64,000 bases of DNA from positions 2,634 to 66,633 of the forward strand of contig DASWHF010000018.1 of NCBI GenBank assembly GCA_036393295.1, read 5' to 3'. Positions 3,130 through 16,777 of this stretch are shown here, piece by piece. Numbering within the stretch: the stretch's first letter is position 1; the number at the start of each line of letters is the position of its first letter. Origin of the DNA: Acidiferrobacterales bacterium. GTDB lineage: Bacteria > Pseudomonadota > Gammaproteobacteria > Acidiferrobacterales > UBA6901. The position numbers were made by a program, and so were the translations under genes. The notes below the pieces were generated by a model. It was not told the origin of the DNA, did no database searches, and saw only the letters and a list, made by a program, of their open reading frames with translations.

Positions 3130-4266
3130 GTGGACATGTTCCAGTTGATCTATCGTCAGGTGACCTACGACCGCATCCGCGTGTTGCTGACCTGTGGCAC
3201 GATCGCGGCCGTGGTGGCGGTGATCCTGACGCTCGAAGGCTTCCGCGAGGGCTTGTATGCGCAGCTGCGTGCGGCGGTGCTGGAGCGCGGTGCCGATCTG
3301 GTGCTGACCCAGACCGGTGTTGCGAACATGATGGCGGCACGCTCGGTCATCCCGCAGCTGGCGCGCGCCCAGGTCGAGGCGGTCGATGGCGTCGACCAGG
3401 CCTATCCCATGACCACCCTGCCGGTGATTTTCGACCATGCGGGACGCCGCACGCCGGTCTTTCTGCTGGTCTACGATGTCGCCGGCGGCCCGTCACGCCT
3501 GATCGAGGGCGCGCGCATTTCGGCACGGCGGCAGATCGTAATCGACGAATCGTTGGCGGACCGTTACGCCCTGAAGCCCGGCGACGATTTCGAGATCTCC
3601 GGGTTTCGGTTCTCGATCGCCGGTGTGTCGATCGGCACGGCGGCGATGTTCACACCGTTCGCGTTCATCACTTATGACGACCTGATCGATTTCTATCTCG
3701 AATCCGAGCTGGTCGCCGACATCACGACTTTTCCGCTGCTGAGCTTCCTGCTCGTCGAGCTGCGCCCCGGCGCCGACATCGCACGCGTGGCGCAGGCGAT
3801 AGAGTCAAAGGTCGCATCGGTCGATGTCTTCCAGCCGGCGGCACTCGCCACCAATGACGAGAACCTCGGCCGCGCGCTGTTCGGGCCGATCCTGGGATTT
3901 CTCGTGGCCATCGGCTATGTCATCGGCGTGCTGGTGGTCGGCATCTTCATGTTCGCGGCGGTCAACGCCCGCATCCGGGGCATTGGCGTGATGCGCGCGC
4001 TCGGCATCACCCAGCTTGAGCTGGCGCGCCTGGTGGTCGCGGAGGCGGTGCTGCTGATGTTGCTGGCCCTGCCGGTCGGCGTGATCCTGGCCCAGGGCCT
4101 GGCGGCGCTCATTCAATGGATGTCGCCGCTGTACCGGGTATTGCCGGTCGAGTCCGTGCCGTTGGCGCGCACCGCGGTCGCGGCCCTGGGGTTCGCGCTG
4201 CTCGGCTCGCTGTTGCCGGTGCGCGCCACCGCCATGCTGGATCCCGGCATCGTGTTCCGGAGCTGA
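3130..4266 (+). CDS. ABC transporter permease, FtsX/MacB-like
   Basis: N-terminal TM, then a ~230-aa extracytoplasmic domain, then three C-terminal TMs with the FtsX-like segment RALGITQLELARLVVAEAVLLML. Confidence 0.7.
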   Translation: MDMFQLIYRQVTYDRIRVLLTCGTIAAVVAVILTLEGFREGLYAQLRAAVLERGADLVLTQTGVANMMAARSVIPQLARAQVEAVDGVDQAYPMTTLPVIFDHAGRRTPVFLLVYDVAGGPSRLIEGARISARRQIVIDESLADRYALKPGDDFEISGFRFSIAGVSIGTAAMFTPFAFITYDDLIDFYLESELVADITTFPLLSFLLVELRPGADIARVAQAIESKVASVDVFQPAALATNDENLGRALFGPILGFLVAIGYVIGVLVVGIFMFAAVNARIRGIGVMRALGITQLELARLVVAEAVLLMLLALPVGVILAQGLAALIQWMSPLYRVLPVESVPLARTAVAALGFALLGSLLPVRATAMLDPGIVFRS

Positions 4267-4267
4267 T

Positions 4268-4597
4268 ATGTGGCGCTGGACGTGGAAGAGTCTGCTCGAC
4301 GAACCGCTCGGCCTGCTGGGCAGCGCGGCCGGCGTGGCGAGCGCCTTTGTGCTGGTGATCTTCTTCGAAGGATTGTTTGCCGGCGAGTCCGGCCAGATCG
4401 TGTCCTATCTGCGTCACGCTGGTGCGGACGTGTGGGTCGCGCAGCCCGGTGTGTCCAACATGCACATGGCCAGCTCCTTTGTTCCGGACTGGAAGCAGGC
4501 GCAGATCGAGCGCATCCCGGGTGTGCGACGTGTCACCCCGACCCAGAGAAGGGAGATGGCGATGAAAACCGCTGCAGCGACGGCAAGCTGTCGCTAA
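4268..4597 (+). pseudogene. Truncated paralogous FtsX-type permease (N-terminal ~91 aa only)
   Basis: MWRWTWKSLLDEPLGLLGSAAGVASAFVLVIFFEGLFAGESGQIVSYLRHAGADVWVAQPGVSNMH parallels the N-terminus of the upstream permease. Similarity stops near nt 4541 and the ORF ends in unrelated residues. Confidence 0.55.
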
Positions 4598-14456: not shown

Positions 14457-14748
14457 GGCCCGGGCGTCATCCGGCGCGCCCGGGAAGCCGTCGGCCGGCC
14501 GGGGAATACGGCGTGGATCTCCCGTGCAAACTCATTGGGCGATGTATCCTTGATCTAATGACCATGCCGCTAGACAGCGCGGCTCGCCAGCTTGTATTAA
14601 ACCTACAAAACTTGCATCATTAAACAATCAGTTATCGGCCTCGGCGTCTCCGCCATGACGGCCCCGGGAACTGGTGTGGCGATGGCGCGTATTTTGCATG
14701 GATTTTGCGTCTCAAATTAAGGGCAACAGAGCCTCGAGCGGAGTTCCC

Positions 14749-15432
14749 ATGGCAAAAAAGATCCCTGAAATTTACCAGCACATCGCCATCATCATCCTGG
14801 TGACCCTGATGGCCATCGGCGCCAATCTGCCCGATGAAATCAGCAAGGGTCTGGGGATCAACAAGAACTACCTGCTCATCGGCCTGATCGCGATCGTGAC
14901 GGTGTCGCTGGTGCGCTATCTCAAGTTCACGCTGATACTGGTGATCGCCATCCTGGCGGTCGGCGCCAATCTGCCCGAGAGCATCGCCAACGAGCTGGGA
15001 GTGAGCACGCAGGTCATGTTCTTCGCGCTGGTGGCGATGGTGGTGGTGTCGTTCATGAATTTCGTCCTGCACCTGCCGAAGGGCGTCAAGCCCATCAAGC
15101 AGATCAACAGCGCGCACGGCGCGCGCGCCCTGTGTCAGGCCGCGTACAAGGGCCACGCTTCAATGGTGTATTCACTGATCAGCGCGGGCATCAATCCCAA
15201 CTATTCCGACGAGCGCGGCAACGTCCCGCTGGTGGTGGCGGCCTCGCAGGGGCGCGCGCTGGTGGTGAAGCTGCTGCTCGACAACGGCGCGGACGTGAAC
15301 GTCAAGGACGGTTCCGGCAAGACGGCGATGCAGGCCGCCGCCGAAGGCGGCTTCAACCAGACGGTGGTGCTGCTCAAGAACGCCGAGCTCAAGTCCCTGG
15401 GCGGCGGCGCGGCCACGCCGGCGGCGGGATGA
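14749..15432 (+). CDS. Membrane protein with internally duplicated GANLP(D/E) TM module and C-terminal ankyrin repeats
   Basis: ATG at 14749 follows GAGCGGAG. Two ~45-aa hydrophobic repeats each carry (A/V)GANLP(D/E). The ankyrin part reads GHASMVYSLISAGINPNYSDERGNVPLVVAASQGRALVVKLLLDNGADVNVKDGSGKTAMQAAAEGG. Confidence 0.7.
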   Translation: MAKKIPEIYQHIAIIILVTLMAIGANLPDEISKGLGINKNYLLIGLIAIVTVSLVRYLKFTLILVIAILAVGANLPESIANELGVSTQVMFFALVAMVVVSFMNFVLHLPKGVKPIKQINSAHGARALCQAAYKGHASMVYSLISAGINPNYSDERGNVPLVVAASQGRALVVKLLLDNGADVNVKDGSGKTAMQAAAEGGFNQTVVLLKNAELKSLGGGAATPAAG

Positions 15433-15668
15433 GACCCTGCCCTGCCGCTAAACGACGGAAATGGTGCCCCGAGCCGCTATCACAACATCCGCCGCGTAGT
15501 TGGCGGTCTGGGTCCACGCCTTCAACGTGTTTGGGTTTGCCCTCCCAGAACGGGACAGTCGCCAAAAGTAACCGCACGTGCGTGATGTGCAGATTGGACG
15601 CTGTGAAACTCTGCAATGGTGCCCGGGGCCGGACTCGAACCGGCACGGGGTTGCCCCCGAGGGATTTT

Positions 15669-16378
15669 CTTACCCGCTACGGCTTTCGCCGCCGCGTTCC
15701 GTGAAGAACGCATTTTGTGGTCTGGACTTTCTCTTTTCCCTAGGCTAGTTTTCACCAGCCCTTAGGTAGGGGCCGTTAAGTCTCTACACTTTCCCAAAGC
15801 TGGAGCGATACAGGGACGATCGTGAAGCTCCGAAAGTATTCCGCCATGCAGCTCAAGCTGGCGGTGAAGACCGCCACATCGCTGAGGCAGGTTTTGCAGA
15901 AGCTCAACGTCGCCCCGTACGGCGGCAATTACGACGTTCTCAAGAAAGCCATTCGGCACTTCGATCTCGATACGTCGCATTTCGTCGGTCAAGCATGGAG
16001 CAAGGGGAGGAAGCTCGCGCCGCGATGGCCGATCGAACGCTATCTCAACAATTCGCGCCCCGTACAGTCCAACAGACTCAGGCGCTGGCTGTTGCGTGAT
16101 GGCATCCTTGAACATCGCTGCTCGTTCTGCCGCCGAACACGATGGCTCAACCGGCCTATTCCCCTCGAGCTTGATCACATCAACGGGAACAACAAGGACA
16201 ACAGGCTGGAAAACCTCCGTCTCTTGTGTCCCAACTGCCACGCGTTCACTCCAACATACCGCAATAGAAAGCGGTCTCGGGCTTAGCTCGGGATTGTCAC
16301 CGCCATGACGCGCTGAGATTCCCCCGAATTTGACCCCATTCATGCCAGGGGTTTCCCGCCTGGATGCTCAAATTACTT
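15669..16378 (-). mobile_element. Group I intron (IC3-like, tRNA-Leu(UAA) type) with an ORF insertion
   Basis: It follows U34 and ends in G. The 5' part reads AAGUAAUUUGAGC...GGCGGGAAACCCCUGGCAUGAAUGGGGUCAAAUUCGGGGGAAUCUCAGCGCG. The 3' part reads GUGUAGAGACUUAACGGCCCCUACCUAAGGG...GUAAG. These match remembered core segments of the Azoarcus tRNA-Ile and cyanobacterial tRNA-Leu introns (GUCAAAUUCGG, GUGUAGAGACU, ACCUAAGG). The non-ORF core is about 245 nt. Confidence 0.8.
15822..16286 (+). CDS. HNH homing-type endonuclease encoded antisense within the intron
   Basis: The C-terminal ELDHINGNNKDNRLENLRLLCPNCH is a clear HNH motif, with CSFC...CPNCH as a zinc-finger-like pair. GTG at 15822 (ATG at 15846 is an alternative). 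The stop lies inside the intron hairpin CUCGGGCUUAGCUCGGG. Confidence 0.85.
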   Translation: MKLRKYSAMQLKLAVKTATSLRQVLQKLNVAPYGGNYDVLKKAIRHFDLDTSHFVGQAWSKGRKLAPRWPIERYLNNSRPVQSNRLRRWLLRDGILEHRCSFCRRTRWLNRPIPLELDHINGNNKDNRLENLRLLCPNCHAFTPTYRNRKRSRA

Positions 16379-16453
16379 AAGTCCCTTGCGTCTACCTATT
16401 TCGCCACCCGGGCAATCGGGAAGGCACTGCAACATTATACCGAAATGCGAAAC

Positions 16454-16527
16454 TGGAGGCTGGGGTCGGAATCGAACCGGCGTCCACGGCTTTGCAGGCC
16501 GCTGCATAACCACTCTGCCACCCAGCC
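16454..16527 (-). tRNA. cysT: tRNA-Cys(GCA)
   Basis: Reverse complement GGCTGGGTGGCAGAGTGGTTATGCAGCGGCCTGCAAAGCCGTGGACGCCGGTTCGATTCCGACCCCAGCCTCCA. Anticodon loop is CT-GCA-AA. Confidence 0.9.
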
Positions 16528-16651: not shown

Positions 16652-16726
16652 TGGAGCGGGAAACGAGATTCGAACTCGCGACCCCAACCTTGGCAAGGTT
16701 GTGCTCTACCACTGAGCTATTCCCGC
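16652..16726 (-). tRNA. glyW: tRNA-Gly(GCC)
   Basis: Reverse complement GCGGGAATAGCTCAGTGGTAGAGCACAACCTTGCCAAGGTTGGGGTCGCGAGTTCGAATCTCGTTTCCCGCTCCA. Confidence 0.9.
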
Positions 16727-16777
16727 GCTAAAGGCTGGGTATTGTAAACGCGGTCACTGGACTGTCAAGCGCGCGCC

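What the first reader, a model, noticed from the sequence alone, without database searches (positions are those of the whole stretch)
15822..16286. HNH endonuclease gene sits inside the intron but on the opposite strand
The only convincing ORF in the intron (ELDHINGNNKDNRLENLRLLCPNCH) is on the plus strand, antisense to the tRNA operon. It replaces the distal part of a peripheral hairpin. Its stop codon lies in CUCGGGCUUAGCUCGGG, the P6-equivalent by analogy with Azoarcus. About 245 nt of ribozyme core remain.

Antisense homing-endonuclease genes in group I introns are rare. This one would need its own promoter inside the intron 3' region, and its transcription would collide with tRNA operon transcription. 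The minus-strand ORF 15762..16343 is a shadow of this gene.
Basis: seen in the sequence. Interest (0 to 1): 0.7.

Follow-up and report, generated by a model that had tools for sequence, protein, structure and literature searches.

The report
Backwards HNH gene inside tRNA-Leu intron
A self-splicing intron in a bacterial leucine-tRNA gene carries, on the opposite DNA strand, an intact gene for an HNH DNA-cutting enzyme, and the same backwards arrangement turns up in hundreds of bacterial species and some phages, apparently undescribed.

Summary
On the minus strand, tRNA-Leu(UAA) (16413..15617) is the third gene of a tRNA-Gly/Cys/Leu operon next to pgsA. It is split after U34 by a 710-nt group I intron (16378..15669). 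The terminal loop of P6 holds a 154-codon HNH endonuclease gene on the plus strand (15822-16286). Its TAG stop lies in the conserved P4'/P6 core.

The plus-strand frame is under strong purifying selection (dN/dS 0.05-0.2). The minus-strand ORF is a GC-driven shadow, open in only 2 of 67 loci. The ribozyme helices P3, P4, P6, P8 and P9 covary across 76 loci; P7 is canonical but invariant.

The gene belongs to a large uncharacterised family: 7,506 protein clusters, 473 species genomes and 177 phage contigs. The family is tied to tRNA-Leu(UAA) genes and occurs in four states:
- free-standing beside intron-less tRNA-Leu genes, mainly in phage tRNA arrays;
- free-standing beside ORF-less introns;
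- sense in P6;
- antisense in P6, in about 70 of the 80 bacterial loci examined.

The best reading is a mobile group I intron driven by an antisense homing endonuclease. Cleavage, splicing and the promoter are inferred, not shown. I found no description in the searchable literature. The known antisense precedents are eukaryotic. I rate it a new variant of a known kind.

The parts
16741..16768 (-). Promoter-like site of the tRNA-Gly/Cys/Leu operon (TTGACA-16-TACAAT, 11 of 12 matches)
16652..16726 (-). tRNA-Gly(GCC), first gene of the operon
16454..16527 (-). tRNA-Cys(GCA), second gene of the operon
16379..16413 (-). tRNA-Leu(UAA) 5' exon, ending at U34 (GCCCGGGUGGCGAAAUAGGUAGACGCAAGGGACUU)
   Evidence: acceptor and anticodon stems are 100% canonical across 76 loci
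15669..16378 (-). Group I intron of 710 nt, resembling the Azoarcus/Anabaena (IC3-type) tRNA introns by recalled sequence. It is inserted between U34 and A35, and the omega-G is at 15669.
   Evidence: Rfam RF00028 scores above its gathering cutoff in ORF-less homologues
16277..16378 (-). 5' ribozyme half: P1 (with U.G at the splice site), P2, P3 5' strand, P4, P5, P4', and P6 5' strand (CCCGAG, 16281-16276)
15822..16286 (+). HNH endonuclease gene of 154 aa, with a GTG start and a TAG stop. It is antisense to the intron and fills the P6 terminal loop. The N-terminal part is a three-helix domain and the C-terminal part is a zinc-finger HNH domain.
16284..16286 (+). Stop codon TAG, the complement of C16286-U16285-A16284 in the invariant GAGCUAAGCC. 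U16285 pairs with A15790 in P6.
15812..15816 (+). Shine-Dalgarno-like AGGGA, 5 nt before the GTG start
   Evidence: read directly from the sequence
15762..15790 (+). Candidate weak promoter for the HNH gene: TTAGGT-N17-TACACT, the complement of the P8 5' strand, P3', P7 and J6/7. This is inferred only.
   Evidence: it does not pass the sigma-70 scan
15669..15798 (-). 3' ribozyme half: P6 3' strand (UUUGGG, 15798-15793), J6/7, P7, P3', P8, P7', P9a, and P9 with a GAAA loop
15617..15668 (-). tRNA-Leu(UAA) 3' exon (AAAAUCCCUCGG...GGGCACCA)
15762..16343 (-). 193-aa minus-strand ORF, a non-coding shadow of the HNH gene
15694..15711 (+). Terminator-like hairpin on the plus strand (the complement of P9a) followed by ATTTTGTGG. 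It lies between the upstream plus-strand gene and the HNH gene.

Best explanation
The locus is a composite mobile element.

**The intron.** A self-splicing group I intron interrupts the anticodon loop of tRNA-Leu(UAA). This is the same U34|A35 site as the classic cyanobacterial and plastid tRNA-Leu intron. It is transcribed from the strong tRNA-Gly/Cys/Leu operon promoter and removes itself from the pre-tRNA.

**The enzyme gene.** The terminal loop of helix P6 carries, on the opposite strand, a gene for a small two-domain HNH endonuclease.

**Proposed mechanism (inferred).**
- The enzyme recognises and nicks or cuts intron-less tRNA-Leu(UAA) genes around the anticodon-loop site.
- Repair from the intron-bearing allele then copies the intron and the endonuclease gene together. 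This is homing.
- The resident allele is immune because the intron splits the recognition site.
- Antisense placement separates the two products. The ribozyme is made at tRNA levels with no ribosomes running through it.
- The endonuclease mRNA comes from a weak promoter in the complement of the ribozyme's 3' domain and is further damped by head-on tRNA transcription.

**Shown here:** gene, strand, position in P6, purifying selection, ribozyme covariation, and the family-wide linkage to tRNA-Leu(UAA) genes in four configurations.

**Inferred:** cleavage specificity, homing, splicing activity, promoter, and transcriptional interference.
For: **Anatomy.**

**A real coding gene on the plus strand.**
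- Codon-position differences are 0.31, 0.21 and 0.62.
- dN/dS is 0.05-0.22 in 18 close pairs.
- The opposite-strand ORF is closed in 65 of 67 loci (all).

**HNH identity.**

**A functional-looking ribozyme.**
- P3, P4, P6, P7, P8 and P9 are about 100% canonical across 76 loci, with compensatory changes in all but the invariant P7.
- The G before the 3' exon is kept in all five sequences of the alignment.
- ORF-less homologues pass the Rfam Intron_gpI cutoff.

**Conserved arrangement.**
- In 4 of the first 5 distinct loci, the HNH gene lies opposite to pgsA and uvrC in the same tRNA operon.
- About 70 of the 80 best species genomes have it antisense in P6.

**Linkage to the tRNA-Leu(UAA) gene itself, rather than to the intron.**
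- Free-standing copies abut intron-less tRNA-Leu(UAA) genes (L084 and L086; many phage contigs).
- Others abut ORF-less intron alleles (L017, L030, L053, L061, L062, L070).
- Sense-in-P6 versions also exist (L085, L087, L088, L130, L131, L138).

**Signatures of a homing-endonuclease life cycle.**
- Some copies are pseudogenised or have mutated active sites (L038, L040, L058, L075, L078).
- Spread across phyla includes an Acidobacteriota clade nested among Gammaproteobacteria, a cyanobacterium and phages.
- Contigs from the same soil and sediment metagenomes skip exactly the 710-nt intron, or 483 nt of the P6 insert.

**Transcription.** Metatranscriptome contigs cover the whole element in a related marine locus.
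Against: - No biochemical or strand-specific RNA evidence exists. The metatranscriptome contigs are unstranded, and one ends exactly at the tRNA 5' end. It could therefore be unspliced pre-tRNA rather than HNH mRNA.
- No plus-strand sigma-70 site passes the scan.
- The candidate -35 element varies between TTAGGC, TCAGGC and GTAGGC. Only 32 of 67 loci have an SD-like motif.
- Strong, long-lasting purifying selection and fixed synteny within Gammaproteobacteria are more than a simple gain-decay-loss cycle predicts.
- The Pfam HNH scores fall just under the curated cutoffs, and the structural matches are weak (Foldseek E >= 0.05).
Confidence: 0.8

Rival explanations
1. The endonuclease has been domesticated or repurposed. 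On this view the HNH gene is kept by selection for a host or intron benefit rather than for homing. It might act as a splicing helper (maturase), or as a weapon against incoming phage or competitor DNA that carries intron-less tRNA-Leu(UAA) genes. Its antisense RNA might tune tRNA-Leu maturation.
For: - dN/dS of 0.05-0.2 persists over deep divergence, with the length fixed at 154 aa.
- Synteny is stable in the pgsA-proximal operon across many gammaproteobacterial lineages.
- Phage tRNA arrays often carry intron-less tRNA-Leu(UAA) genes, which would be natural targets.
Against: - Decayed copies exist.
- Transfer across phyla and into phages fits a selfish element.
- The ribozyme core is complete and covaries without any sign of protein dependence.
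- ORF-less alleles of the same intron persist.
Confidence: 0.12
2. The HNH gene is a lodger that uses the P6 loop only as a safe harbour. On this view it is a free-standing selfish gene that travels with tRNA-Leu by hitch-hiking and cuts a site other than the intron insertion site. Intron and endonuclease would then not form one homing unit.
For: - The family is often free-standing next to intron-less tRNA-Leu(UAA) genes, or beside ORF-less introns.
- More distant relatives sit beside other tRNAs (tRNA-Met, tRNA-Leu(UAG)). This resembles the free-standing endonucleases known from phage tRNA regions.
Against: - In bacteria the overwhelmingly common state is inside P6, with ORF ends fitted to the stem and the stop codon inside the core.
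- That state has crossed phyla as a unit: the Acidobacteriota, cyanobacterial and phage copies are all antisense in P6.
Confidence: 0.06
3. The coding gene is really the 193-aa minus-strand ORF (15762..16343) in the sense orientation, or neither ORF is real.
For: The minus-strand ORF is long and uninterrupted in the window.
Against: - It has no family match.
- It is closed in 65 of 67 related loci, and open only where GC content is 57%.
- The substitution pattern follows the plus-strand frame.
- 7,506 homologues of the plus-strand product exist.
Confidence: 0.01

Closest known systems
[quoted passage not shown]
   Same: It has the same host gene and the same U34|A35 insertion site. The core has the same motifs: AAUCCCGAGCUAAGCC in P4'/P6, GUGUAGAGACU in P7, a CCUAAG...UAGGG segment in P8 that resembles the 11-nt tetraloop receptor, and a GAAA loop in L9. 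The comparison with the Azoarcus and Anabaena sequences is from my memory.
   Different: Those introns are about 200-350 nt long and carry no ORF. Here P6 holds a 477-nt insert encoding an endonuclease on the other strand. The third P6 pair is U-A rather than C-G, and the U supplies the middle base of the TAG stop codon.
I-DirII, an antisense homing endonuclease gene in a Didymium iridis nuclear rDNA group I intron (Johansen et al. 2006, as described in PMC3073962)
   Same: The endonuclease gene lies inside a group I intron of a highly transcribed structural-RNA gene. It is on the antisense strand and must use its own promoter.
   Different: I-DirII is eukaryotic and nuclear. [quoted passage not shown] The present case is bacterial, in a tRNA gene, and encodes an HNH enzyme. 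No promoter has been shown.
I-Ssp6803I in the Synechocystis tRNA-fMet intron (Bonocora and Shub 2001, cited in PMC3984707)
   Same: [quoted passage not shown]
   Different: From memory, I-Ssp6803I is a PD-(D/E)xK enzyme encoded on the intron (sense) strand. The host is a different tRNA.
Free-standing endonucleases of phage tRNA regions and 'collaborative homing' (T4 SegB, PMC13096335; T4 mobE with the defunct I-TevIII, PMC2790892; the cyanophage psbA intron with the free-standing F-CphI, and the T5 HNH enzymes F-TflI/II/IV, both from memory)
   Same: Relatives of this protein are free-standing in phage tRNA arrays, directly beside tRNA-Leu genes. Some sit beside an ORF-less intron-bearing allele. 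That is the arrangement proposed as the precursor of composite mobile introns.
   Different: Here the same protein family is also found inside the intron, in both orientations. SegB is a GIY-YIG enzyme. None of the named enzymes is a detectable close homologue, and the search of solved structures returned only McrA at E = 0.53.
Intron-encoded HNH endonucleases of phage (I-HmuI and I-TevIII, both from memory; I-PfoP3I, PMC3428280)
   Same: They share the HNH catalytic motif and are encoded in a peripheral loop of a group I intron. They are probably nicking or cutting enzymes.
   Different: Those are sense-strand ORFs in introns of protein-coding phage genes. The present protein has a different N-terminal three-helix domain, and no solved structure is significantly similar to it.

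Membership tests
Group I intron (Rfam RF00028; resembles the IC3-type tRNA introns) | Match to the family covariance model | tested here: inconclusive
   The window itself gives no RF00028 hit because the 477-nt insert splits the model. The ORF-less homologues L061 (56.7 bits) and L017 (53.7 bits) exceed the gathering score of 50. An HMM built from those two hits both halves of the window intron at E of about 1e-33.
Group I intron (Rfam RF00028; resembles the IC3-type tRNA introns) | Conserved P3-P9 core with base-pair covariation, including the P3/P7 pseudoknot | tested here: met
   Across 76 loci:
- P3 is canonical in 75-76 of 76 loci at each pair, with AU, GC, UA and CG seen at one pair.
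- P4 shows GC and UA alternatives.
- P6 shows many pair types.
- P7 is 76/76.
- P8 and P9 are rich in compensatory changes.
Group I intron (Rfam RF00028; resembles the IC3-type tRNA introns) | [quoted passage not shown] | tested here: met
   P1 is CUU|AAG / UUUGAG, with U.G in 74 of 76 loci. The intron ends ...GGGUAAG|AAAAUCC, and this G is conserved in the five-locus alignment.
Group I intron (Rfam RF00028; resembles the IC3-type tRNA introns) | Self-splicing activity | not testable with these tools
   No spliced or unspliced reads could be assigned to this organism. The RNA contigs from a related locus are unstranded.
HNH endonuclease superfamily (PF01844 / PF13392) | Profile match above the curated threshold | tested here: inconclusive
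   HNH_3 scores 23.7 bits against 24.8, and HNH scores 21.1 against 21.4. PHROG 10822 'HNH endonuclease' matches at 5.8e-45 over residues 2-152. Many homologues carry a precomputed PF13392 assignment.
HNH endonuclease superfamily (PF01844 / PF13392) | Catalytic D-H...N...H residues and the two Cys pairs of the zinc finger | tested here: met
   C100, C103, D118, H119, N131, C136, N138, C139 and H140 are invariant in 22 sequences.
HNH endonuclease superfamily (PF01844 / PF13392) | Beta-beta-alpha-metal fold | tested here: inconclusive
   The model has strands at 116-119 and 132-135 and a helix at 137-140, with pLDDT above 87 in that region. The best Foldseek hits are HNH proteins (McrA 6ghc, Gme HNH nickase 4h9d, Cap5), but E >= 0.05.
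Homing endonuclease gene of a mobile intron (functional class) | Encoded within, or immediately beside, a self-splicing intron at a conserved host site | tested here: met
Homing endonuclease gene of a mobile intron (functional class) | Patchy distribution: ORF-plus, ORF-minus and intron-minus alleles, decayed copies, and horizontal transfer | tested here: met
   - ORF-less and intron-less alleles.
- Pseudogenes.
- Spread across phyla and into phages.
Homing endonuclease gene of a mobile intron (functional class) | Site-specific cleavage of the intron-less allele and gene conversion | not testable with these tools
   This needs purified protein and crosses.
Antisense intron-encoded endonuclease genes (I-DirII type) | Own promoter and a transcript on the antisense strand | tested here: inconclusive
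   - Only a weak -10-like TACACT is present, in 67 of 70 antisense loci, 10-42 nt before the start codon. The -35 element is poor.
- No site passes the sigma-70 scan.
- One metatranscriptome contig starts about 6 nt after TACACT in L027, but it is unstranded.

The most novel reading that the evidence does not exclude
This single HNH family may preserve every stage of how a free-standing endonuclease and an ORF-less ribozyme merge into a mobile intron. The stages seen are:
- beside an intron-less tRNA-Leu gene;
- beside an ORF-less intron;
- inside P6 in the sense orientation;
- inside P6 in the antisense orientation.

The gene may have moved in and out of P6 repeatedly. The antisense state would be the stable end-point in bacteria because the ribozyme core itself supplies the gene's expression signals. 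One P6 base pair, changed from C-G to U-A, supplies both the middle base of the TAG stop and the final T of a -10 element (TACACT). Opposite-strand placement would also shield the ribozyme from ribosomes and keep endonuclease levels low.
Probability: 0.3. Interest if true: 0.8.

Novelty: new variant of a known kind. Interest (0 to 1): 0.62.

Why it matters
Bacterial tRNA group I introns are textbook examples of ORF-less, apparently immobile ribozymes. The one well-known exception is the tRNA-fMet intron that encodes I-Ssp6803I.

Here the classic tRNA-Leu(UAA) intron turns out to carry an endonuclease gene in hundreds of species across Gammaproteobacteria, Acidobacteriota, a cyanobacterium and phages. 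Standard tRNA and Rfam scans do not see it, so these genomes appear to lack tRNA-Leu(UAA).

The antisense orientation is a bacterial counterpart of a rare eukaryotic solution, I-DirII. It addresses the problem of expressing a protein from inside a highly transcribed, untranslated RNA gene.

Free-standing, sense and antisense states coexist in one family. That makes the 'collaborative homing leads to a composite mobile intron' model directly testable by phylogenetics and simple crosses.

There are two practical consequences:
- Genome annotation could be improved by recognising split tRNA-Leu genes and by not calling the shadow ORF.
- The family is a new, compact (154 aa) and possibly very specific DNA endonuclease scaffold.

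Tried and rejected
- ARAGORN and Rfam, at both the gathering and E-value thresholds, find neither the tRNA-Leu nor the intron in the window. I worked around this with ORF-less relatives.
- No RNA-seq exists for the window's organism. Only soil and sediment DNA metagenomes hold it.
- RNA runs found with L004 and L018 held only conserved tRNA words.
- Metatranscriptome contigs for L027 cover the element but carry no strand information. They show no splice joint that can be assigned to that organism. The 'skips 710' joint in X73 carries 18 foreign letters and comes from another organism's intron-less tRNA.
- The sigma-70 scan finds no plus-strand promoter.
- I first took the final T of TACACT to be a promoter adaptation, because it correlates with ORF presence. 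That position is one side of a covarying P6 base pair (U-A, G-C or C-G), so the correlation has a structural explanation and is not independent evidence for a promoter.
- The Foldseek search of the PDB and the search of solved structures gave no significant relative.
- Six literature searches found no report of an HNH gene, sense or antisense, in a bacterial tRNA-Leu intron. The Hausner et al. review does not contain the words 'antisense' or 'HNH'.
- The NJ tree is distance-based and has no support values. The 'multiple moves in and out of P6' reading is therefore tentative.
- I saw a partial resemblance between the exon junction (GGGAUUUUAAGUCCC, reverse complement) and the P6 3' strand with J6/7 (GGGAAAGUG). 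It is too weak to count as evidence that the endonuclease gene invaded at a target-like site.
Full report
**1. What is at the coordinates**

The plus strand carries a 154-codon ORF at 15822-16286. It starts with GTG, preceded by AGGGA 5 nt upstream, and ends with TAG.

Several results identify it as an HNH protein:
- Pfam HNH_3 and HNH hit the C-terminal 30 residues just under their curated cutoffs: 23.7 against 24.8 bits and 21.1 against 21.4 bits.
- PHROG 10822, annotated 'HNH endonuclease', matches nearly the whole protein at 5.8e-45.
- In an alignment of 22 homologues, the two Cys pairs and the D-H...N...H residues are invariant.
- An AlphaFold2 model has mean pLDDT 84.8. It shows an N-terminal three-helix domain (residues 8-46), a linker, and a C-terminal strand-strand-helix element as expected for an HNH fold.
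- Foldseek finds only weak matches, the best being other HNH proteins (McrA, the Gme HNH nickase, Cap5). No solved structure is a sequence relative; the best hit is McrA at E = 0.53.

**2. The host gene and the intron**

The minus strand reads, in order:
- a strong promoter-like site, TTGACA-16-TACAAT, at 16768-16741;
- tRNA-Gly(GCC) and tRNA-Cys(GCA);
- a tRNA-Leu(UAA) gene whose 5' exon (16413-16379) ends at U34 and whose 3' exon (15668-15617) begins at A35.

A 710-nt intervening sequence separates the two exons. pgsA and uvrC lie upstream. From my own knowledge, this is the E. coli-like order pgsA, glyW, cysT, leuZ.

ARAGORN and Rfam miss both the tRNA-Leu and the intron in the window. The intervening sequence is nevertheless a group I intron:
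- Its ORF-less homologues in other genomes pass the Rfam Intron_gpI gathering cutoff: L061 at 56.7 bits and L017 at 53.7 bits.
- An HMM built from only those two sequences hits the 64-kb window at just two places. These are 16413..16277 (model positions 1-138, E = 7e-33) and 15798..15619 (model positions 144-313, E = 4e-33).
- The break falls in the P6 terminal loop.

Across 76 related loci with the ORF excised, I counted base pairs for helices defined by homology:
- P3, P4, P6, P7, P8, P9 and the tRNA stems are essentially 100% canonical.
- All of these except the invariant P7 show many compensatory changes. One P3 pair is AU in 55 loci, GC in 11, UA in 5 and CG in 3.
- The U.G wobble at the 5' splice site is present in 74 of 76 loci.

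The G before the 3' exon is kept in all five sequences of the alignment. The ribozyme looks fully functional in sequence. Splicing itself was not tested.

**3. How the ORF sits in the fold**

The P6 stem strands are CCCGAG (16281-16276) and UUUGGG (15798-15793). They bracket a 477-nt insert.

The ORF's last five codons and its stop are the complement of the P6 5' strand, the P6 internal loop and the first P6 pairs. TAG is the complement of C16286-U16285-A16284 within the invariant GAGCUAAGCC. The start codon lies 24 nt from the P6 3' strand.

The P6 stem differs between loci but stays paired. Examples are CCUUAAUGC/GCAUUAAGG, CCUGAG/CUUGGG, UUCCGG/CCGGAA and CUGAUAU/AUAUCAG. The ORF boundaries are therefore defined by the intron fold.

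**4. Which strand codes**

Among 67 antisense-type loci:
- Mean pairwise differences at codon positions 1, 2 and 3 of the plus frame are 0.31, 0.21 and 0.62.
- Eighteen pairs with unsaturated synonymous change give dN/dS of 0.05-0.22.
- The opposite strand is free of stops across the gene in only 2 of 67 loci. These are the window and L083, both with 57% GC.

The 193-aa minus-strand ORF has no family match.

**5. Distribution**

The protein has 7,506 homologous clusters in the metagenome-scale protein collection. Most of the best 120 are exactly 154 aa and 62-75% identical. In five distinct contigs fetched through three homologues, the gene lies opposite to the same split tRNA-Leu. Four of the five have the same tRNA-Gly/Cys/Leu operon beside pgsA and uvrC; L005 does not.

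A scan of one genome per GTDB species found 473 genomes with a relative. The best 80 include:
- many Gammaproteobacteria (Ca. Muproteobacteria and Sulfuricaulis are the closest at 75% identity; also Salinisphaera sp. PC39, Thioalkalispiraceae, Porticoccaceae, Thiotrichales, Steroidobacteraceae);
- a large Pyrinomonadaceae/Blastocatellia (Acidobacteriota) group;
- the cyanobacterium Alkalinema;
- an Armatimonadetes MAG and others.

I located the two intron halves in each locus by nhmmer and the ORF by translation. The counts are:
- About 70 of 80 are antisense in P6, like the window. In the Acidobacteriota copies the ORF runs 7-13 codons further across P4'.
- Three are sense in P6 (L085, L087, L088; 48-50% identity).
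- Five have an ORF-less intron with the HNH gene free-standing 50-240 nt beyond the tRNA 3' end, on the opposite strand (L017, L053, L061, L062, L070).
- One has the HNH gene upstream and divergent (L030).
- Two have the gene free-standing beside an intron-less tRNA-Leu(UAA) (L084, L086).

Five copies are decaying. L038, L040 and L058 have in-frame stops. L075 and L078 have mutated catalytic or zinc-binding residues.

In a distance tree, the free-standing cases fall at several places inside the gammaproteobacterial antisense clade. The Acidobacteriota form one clade nested among Gammaproteobacteria. The tree is neighbour-joining without support values, so this is suggestive only.

**6. Phages**

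IMG/VR holds 177 relatives. In the best 80, the gene is nearly always directly beside a tRNA-Leu(UAA) gene in a phage tRNA array. It lies upstream, downstream, convergent or divergent relative to that gene. The other states also occur:
- ORF-less intron plus a free-standing gene;
- antisense in P6 (L092, L093, L103);
- sense in P6 (L130, L131, L138);
- one sense insertion in a different loop (L115).

More distant relatives sit after tRNA-Met genes. In the cultured Citrobacter phage Michonne, a relative at 44% identity lies 2 nt before tRNA-Leu(UAG). All are annotated only as 'HNH endonuclease' or 'hypothetical protein'.

The unifying feature of the family is therefore linkage to a tRNA-Leu(UAA) gene. 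This is what is expected if that gene is the enzyme's target.

**7. Expression**

This is the weak point.
- The sigma-70 scan finds nothing on the plus strand upstream of the ORF.
- The best candidate is TTAGGT-N17-TACACT (15762-15790), which is the complement of the ribozyme's P8, P3' and P7 region.
- TACACT is present in 67 of 70 antisense loci, 10-42 nt before the start codon, most often 14-15 nt.
- The -35 position varies, and only 32 of 67 loci have an SD-like motif.

The final T of TACACT and the middle base of the TAG stop are the two sides of one covarying P6 base pair. The pair is U-A in ORF-bearing introns, G-C or U-A in the ORF-less ones, and C-G in L088. From memory, it is also C-G in Azoarcus and Anabaena. 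The conservation therefore has a structural explanation and is not independent evidence for a promoter.

Other observations bear on expression:
- A plus-strand terminator-like hairpin at 15694-15711 would limit read-through from the upstream plus-strand gene.
- The free-standing copy in L061 has a canonical TATAAT 22 nt before its ATG.
- Two marine metatranscriptomes contain contigs covering the whole element of L027. One runs from 3690 to 4591 and ends exactly at the tRNA 5' end.
- In a third run a contig begins about 6 nt after that locus's TACACT.
- These contigs are unstranded. They show only that the region is present in RNA.

**8. Community-level polymorphism**

The soil and sediment DNA metagenomes that hold the window sequence also hold other contigs. 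One joins 15666 to 16377, skipping exactly the 710-nt intron. Another joins 15795 to 16279, skipping 483 nt of the P6 insert. They may come from other species. They do show that intron-less targets and ORF-less introns with near-identical flanks coexist with the full element.

**9. Interpretation**

The most economical reading is a mobile group I intron whose homing endonuclease gene is encoded antisense in P6. The intron makes the insertion harmless to the tRNA and protects the resident allele. The endonuclease targets intron-less tRNA-Leu(UAA) genes.

Antisense placement uncouples the endonuclease from the very strong tRNA promoter and keeps ribosomes off the ribozyme. Head-on transcription probably keeps enzyme levels low.

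The strongest rival is domestication, because purifying selection is strong and synteny is stable. Decayed copies, transfer across phyla and into phages, and surviving ORF-less alleles argue for a selfish element that is still active.

**10. Novelty**

Six full-text searches found no description of an endonuclease gene in a bacterial tRNA-Leu intron.
- The review of bacterial group I introns does not contain the words 'antisense' or 'HNH'.
- ORF-less tRNA-Leu(UAA) introns in gammaproteobacteria are known (PMC4853749).
- Antisense endonuclease genes are known from eukaryotic nuclear rDNA, for example I-DirII (PMC3073962). The search results also point to mitochondrial examples, which I did not read.

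The literature tool does not cover most subscription journals, so an earlier report cannot be excluded. I rate this a new variant of a known kind, of moderate to high interest. The wider pattern, one family in all four configurations, is more interesting than the single locus.

Noticed in passing
window 15463-15476 (minus strand): GGCTCGGGGCACCA repeats 12 of 14 bases of the tRNA-Leu 3' end (GGCCCCGGGCACCA, 15630-15617), about 140 nt downstream of the gene. It may be a remnant of a duplication or an integrase att-like scar.
   Followed up: no
L005, around 3585-3600, compared with L004: L005 has the same HNH protein and intron as L004. Its sequence diverges inside the tRNA-Leu acceptor stem (GCCCG|CTTGG against GCCCG|GGTGG). 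MFS transporter genes replace tRNA-Cys, tRNA-Gly and pgsA. This is either an assembly chimera or a real rearrangement that would disable the tRNA.
   Followed up: partly
window 16285 and 15790 (P6 pair); loci L017, L030, L061, L062, L088: One P6 base pair covaries: U-A in ORF-bearing introns, G-C in four ORF-less ones, and C-G in L088 (and, from memory, in Azoarcus and Anabaena). The U gives the middle base of the antisense TAG stop, and the A gives the last T of the -10-like TACACT. A single ribozyme pair thus supplies two plus-strand signals.
   Followed up: partly
L115 507-1350 (IMG/VR phage contig): A relative at 42% identity sits in the sense orientation between the P1 region and P3 of a tRNA-Leu intron. 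That is a different peripheral loop from P6.
   Followed up: no
L159, L161, L162, L164, L168 (phage contigs); L169 (Citrobacter phage Michonne gp141): More distant relatives (33-44% identity) lie 220-300 nt after tRNA-Met(CAU), or 2 nt before tRNA-Leu(UAG), in phage tRNA arrays. Sister lineages may target other tRNA genes.
   Followed up: partly
L039, L041, L044-L052, L057, L059, L066-L069, L072-L074 (Acidobacteriota): The ORFs are 161-167 aa. The reading frame runs 7-13 codons further than in Gammaproteobacteria, across the P4' strand of the ribozyme core. The overlap between protein-coding and catalytic RNA sequence is therefore larger.
   Followed up: partly
L038, L040, L058, L075, L078: These copies have in-frame stop codons or mutated catalytic or zinc-binding residues, inside introns that otherwise look intact. 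They are decaying endonuclease genes.
   Followed up: partly
window 15666->16377 and 15795->16279 (DNA metagenome runs X3, X4): Contigs from the same soil and sediment samples skip exactly the 710-nt intron, or 483 nt of the P6 insert. Intron-less and ORF-less alleles with near-identical flanks are present in the community, but cannot be assigned to the same species.
   Followed up: partly
window 15694-15711 (+): A terminator-like hairpin followed by a T-rich tail lies on the plus strand. It is formed by the complement of intron helix P9a, between the upstream plus-strand gene and the HNH gene.
   Followed up: no
window 14674-15432 (+): The upstream plus-strand ORF (252 aa) looks like a membrane protein with C-terminal ankyrin-like repeats, read by eye from the translation. 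It ends 185 nt before the tRNA-Leu 3' end and is convergent with the tRNA operon.
   Followed up: no
L080 3809-4569 (Alkalinema sp., cyanobacterium): The classic cyanobacterial tRNA-Leu(UAA) intron here also carries the antisense HNH gene in P6 (59% identity to the window protein).
   Followed up: partly
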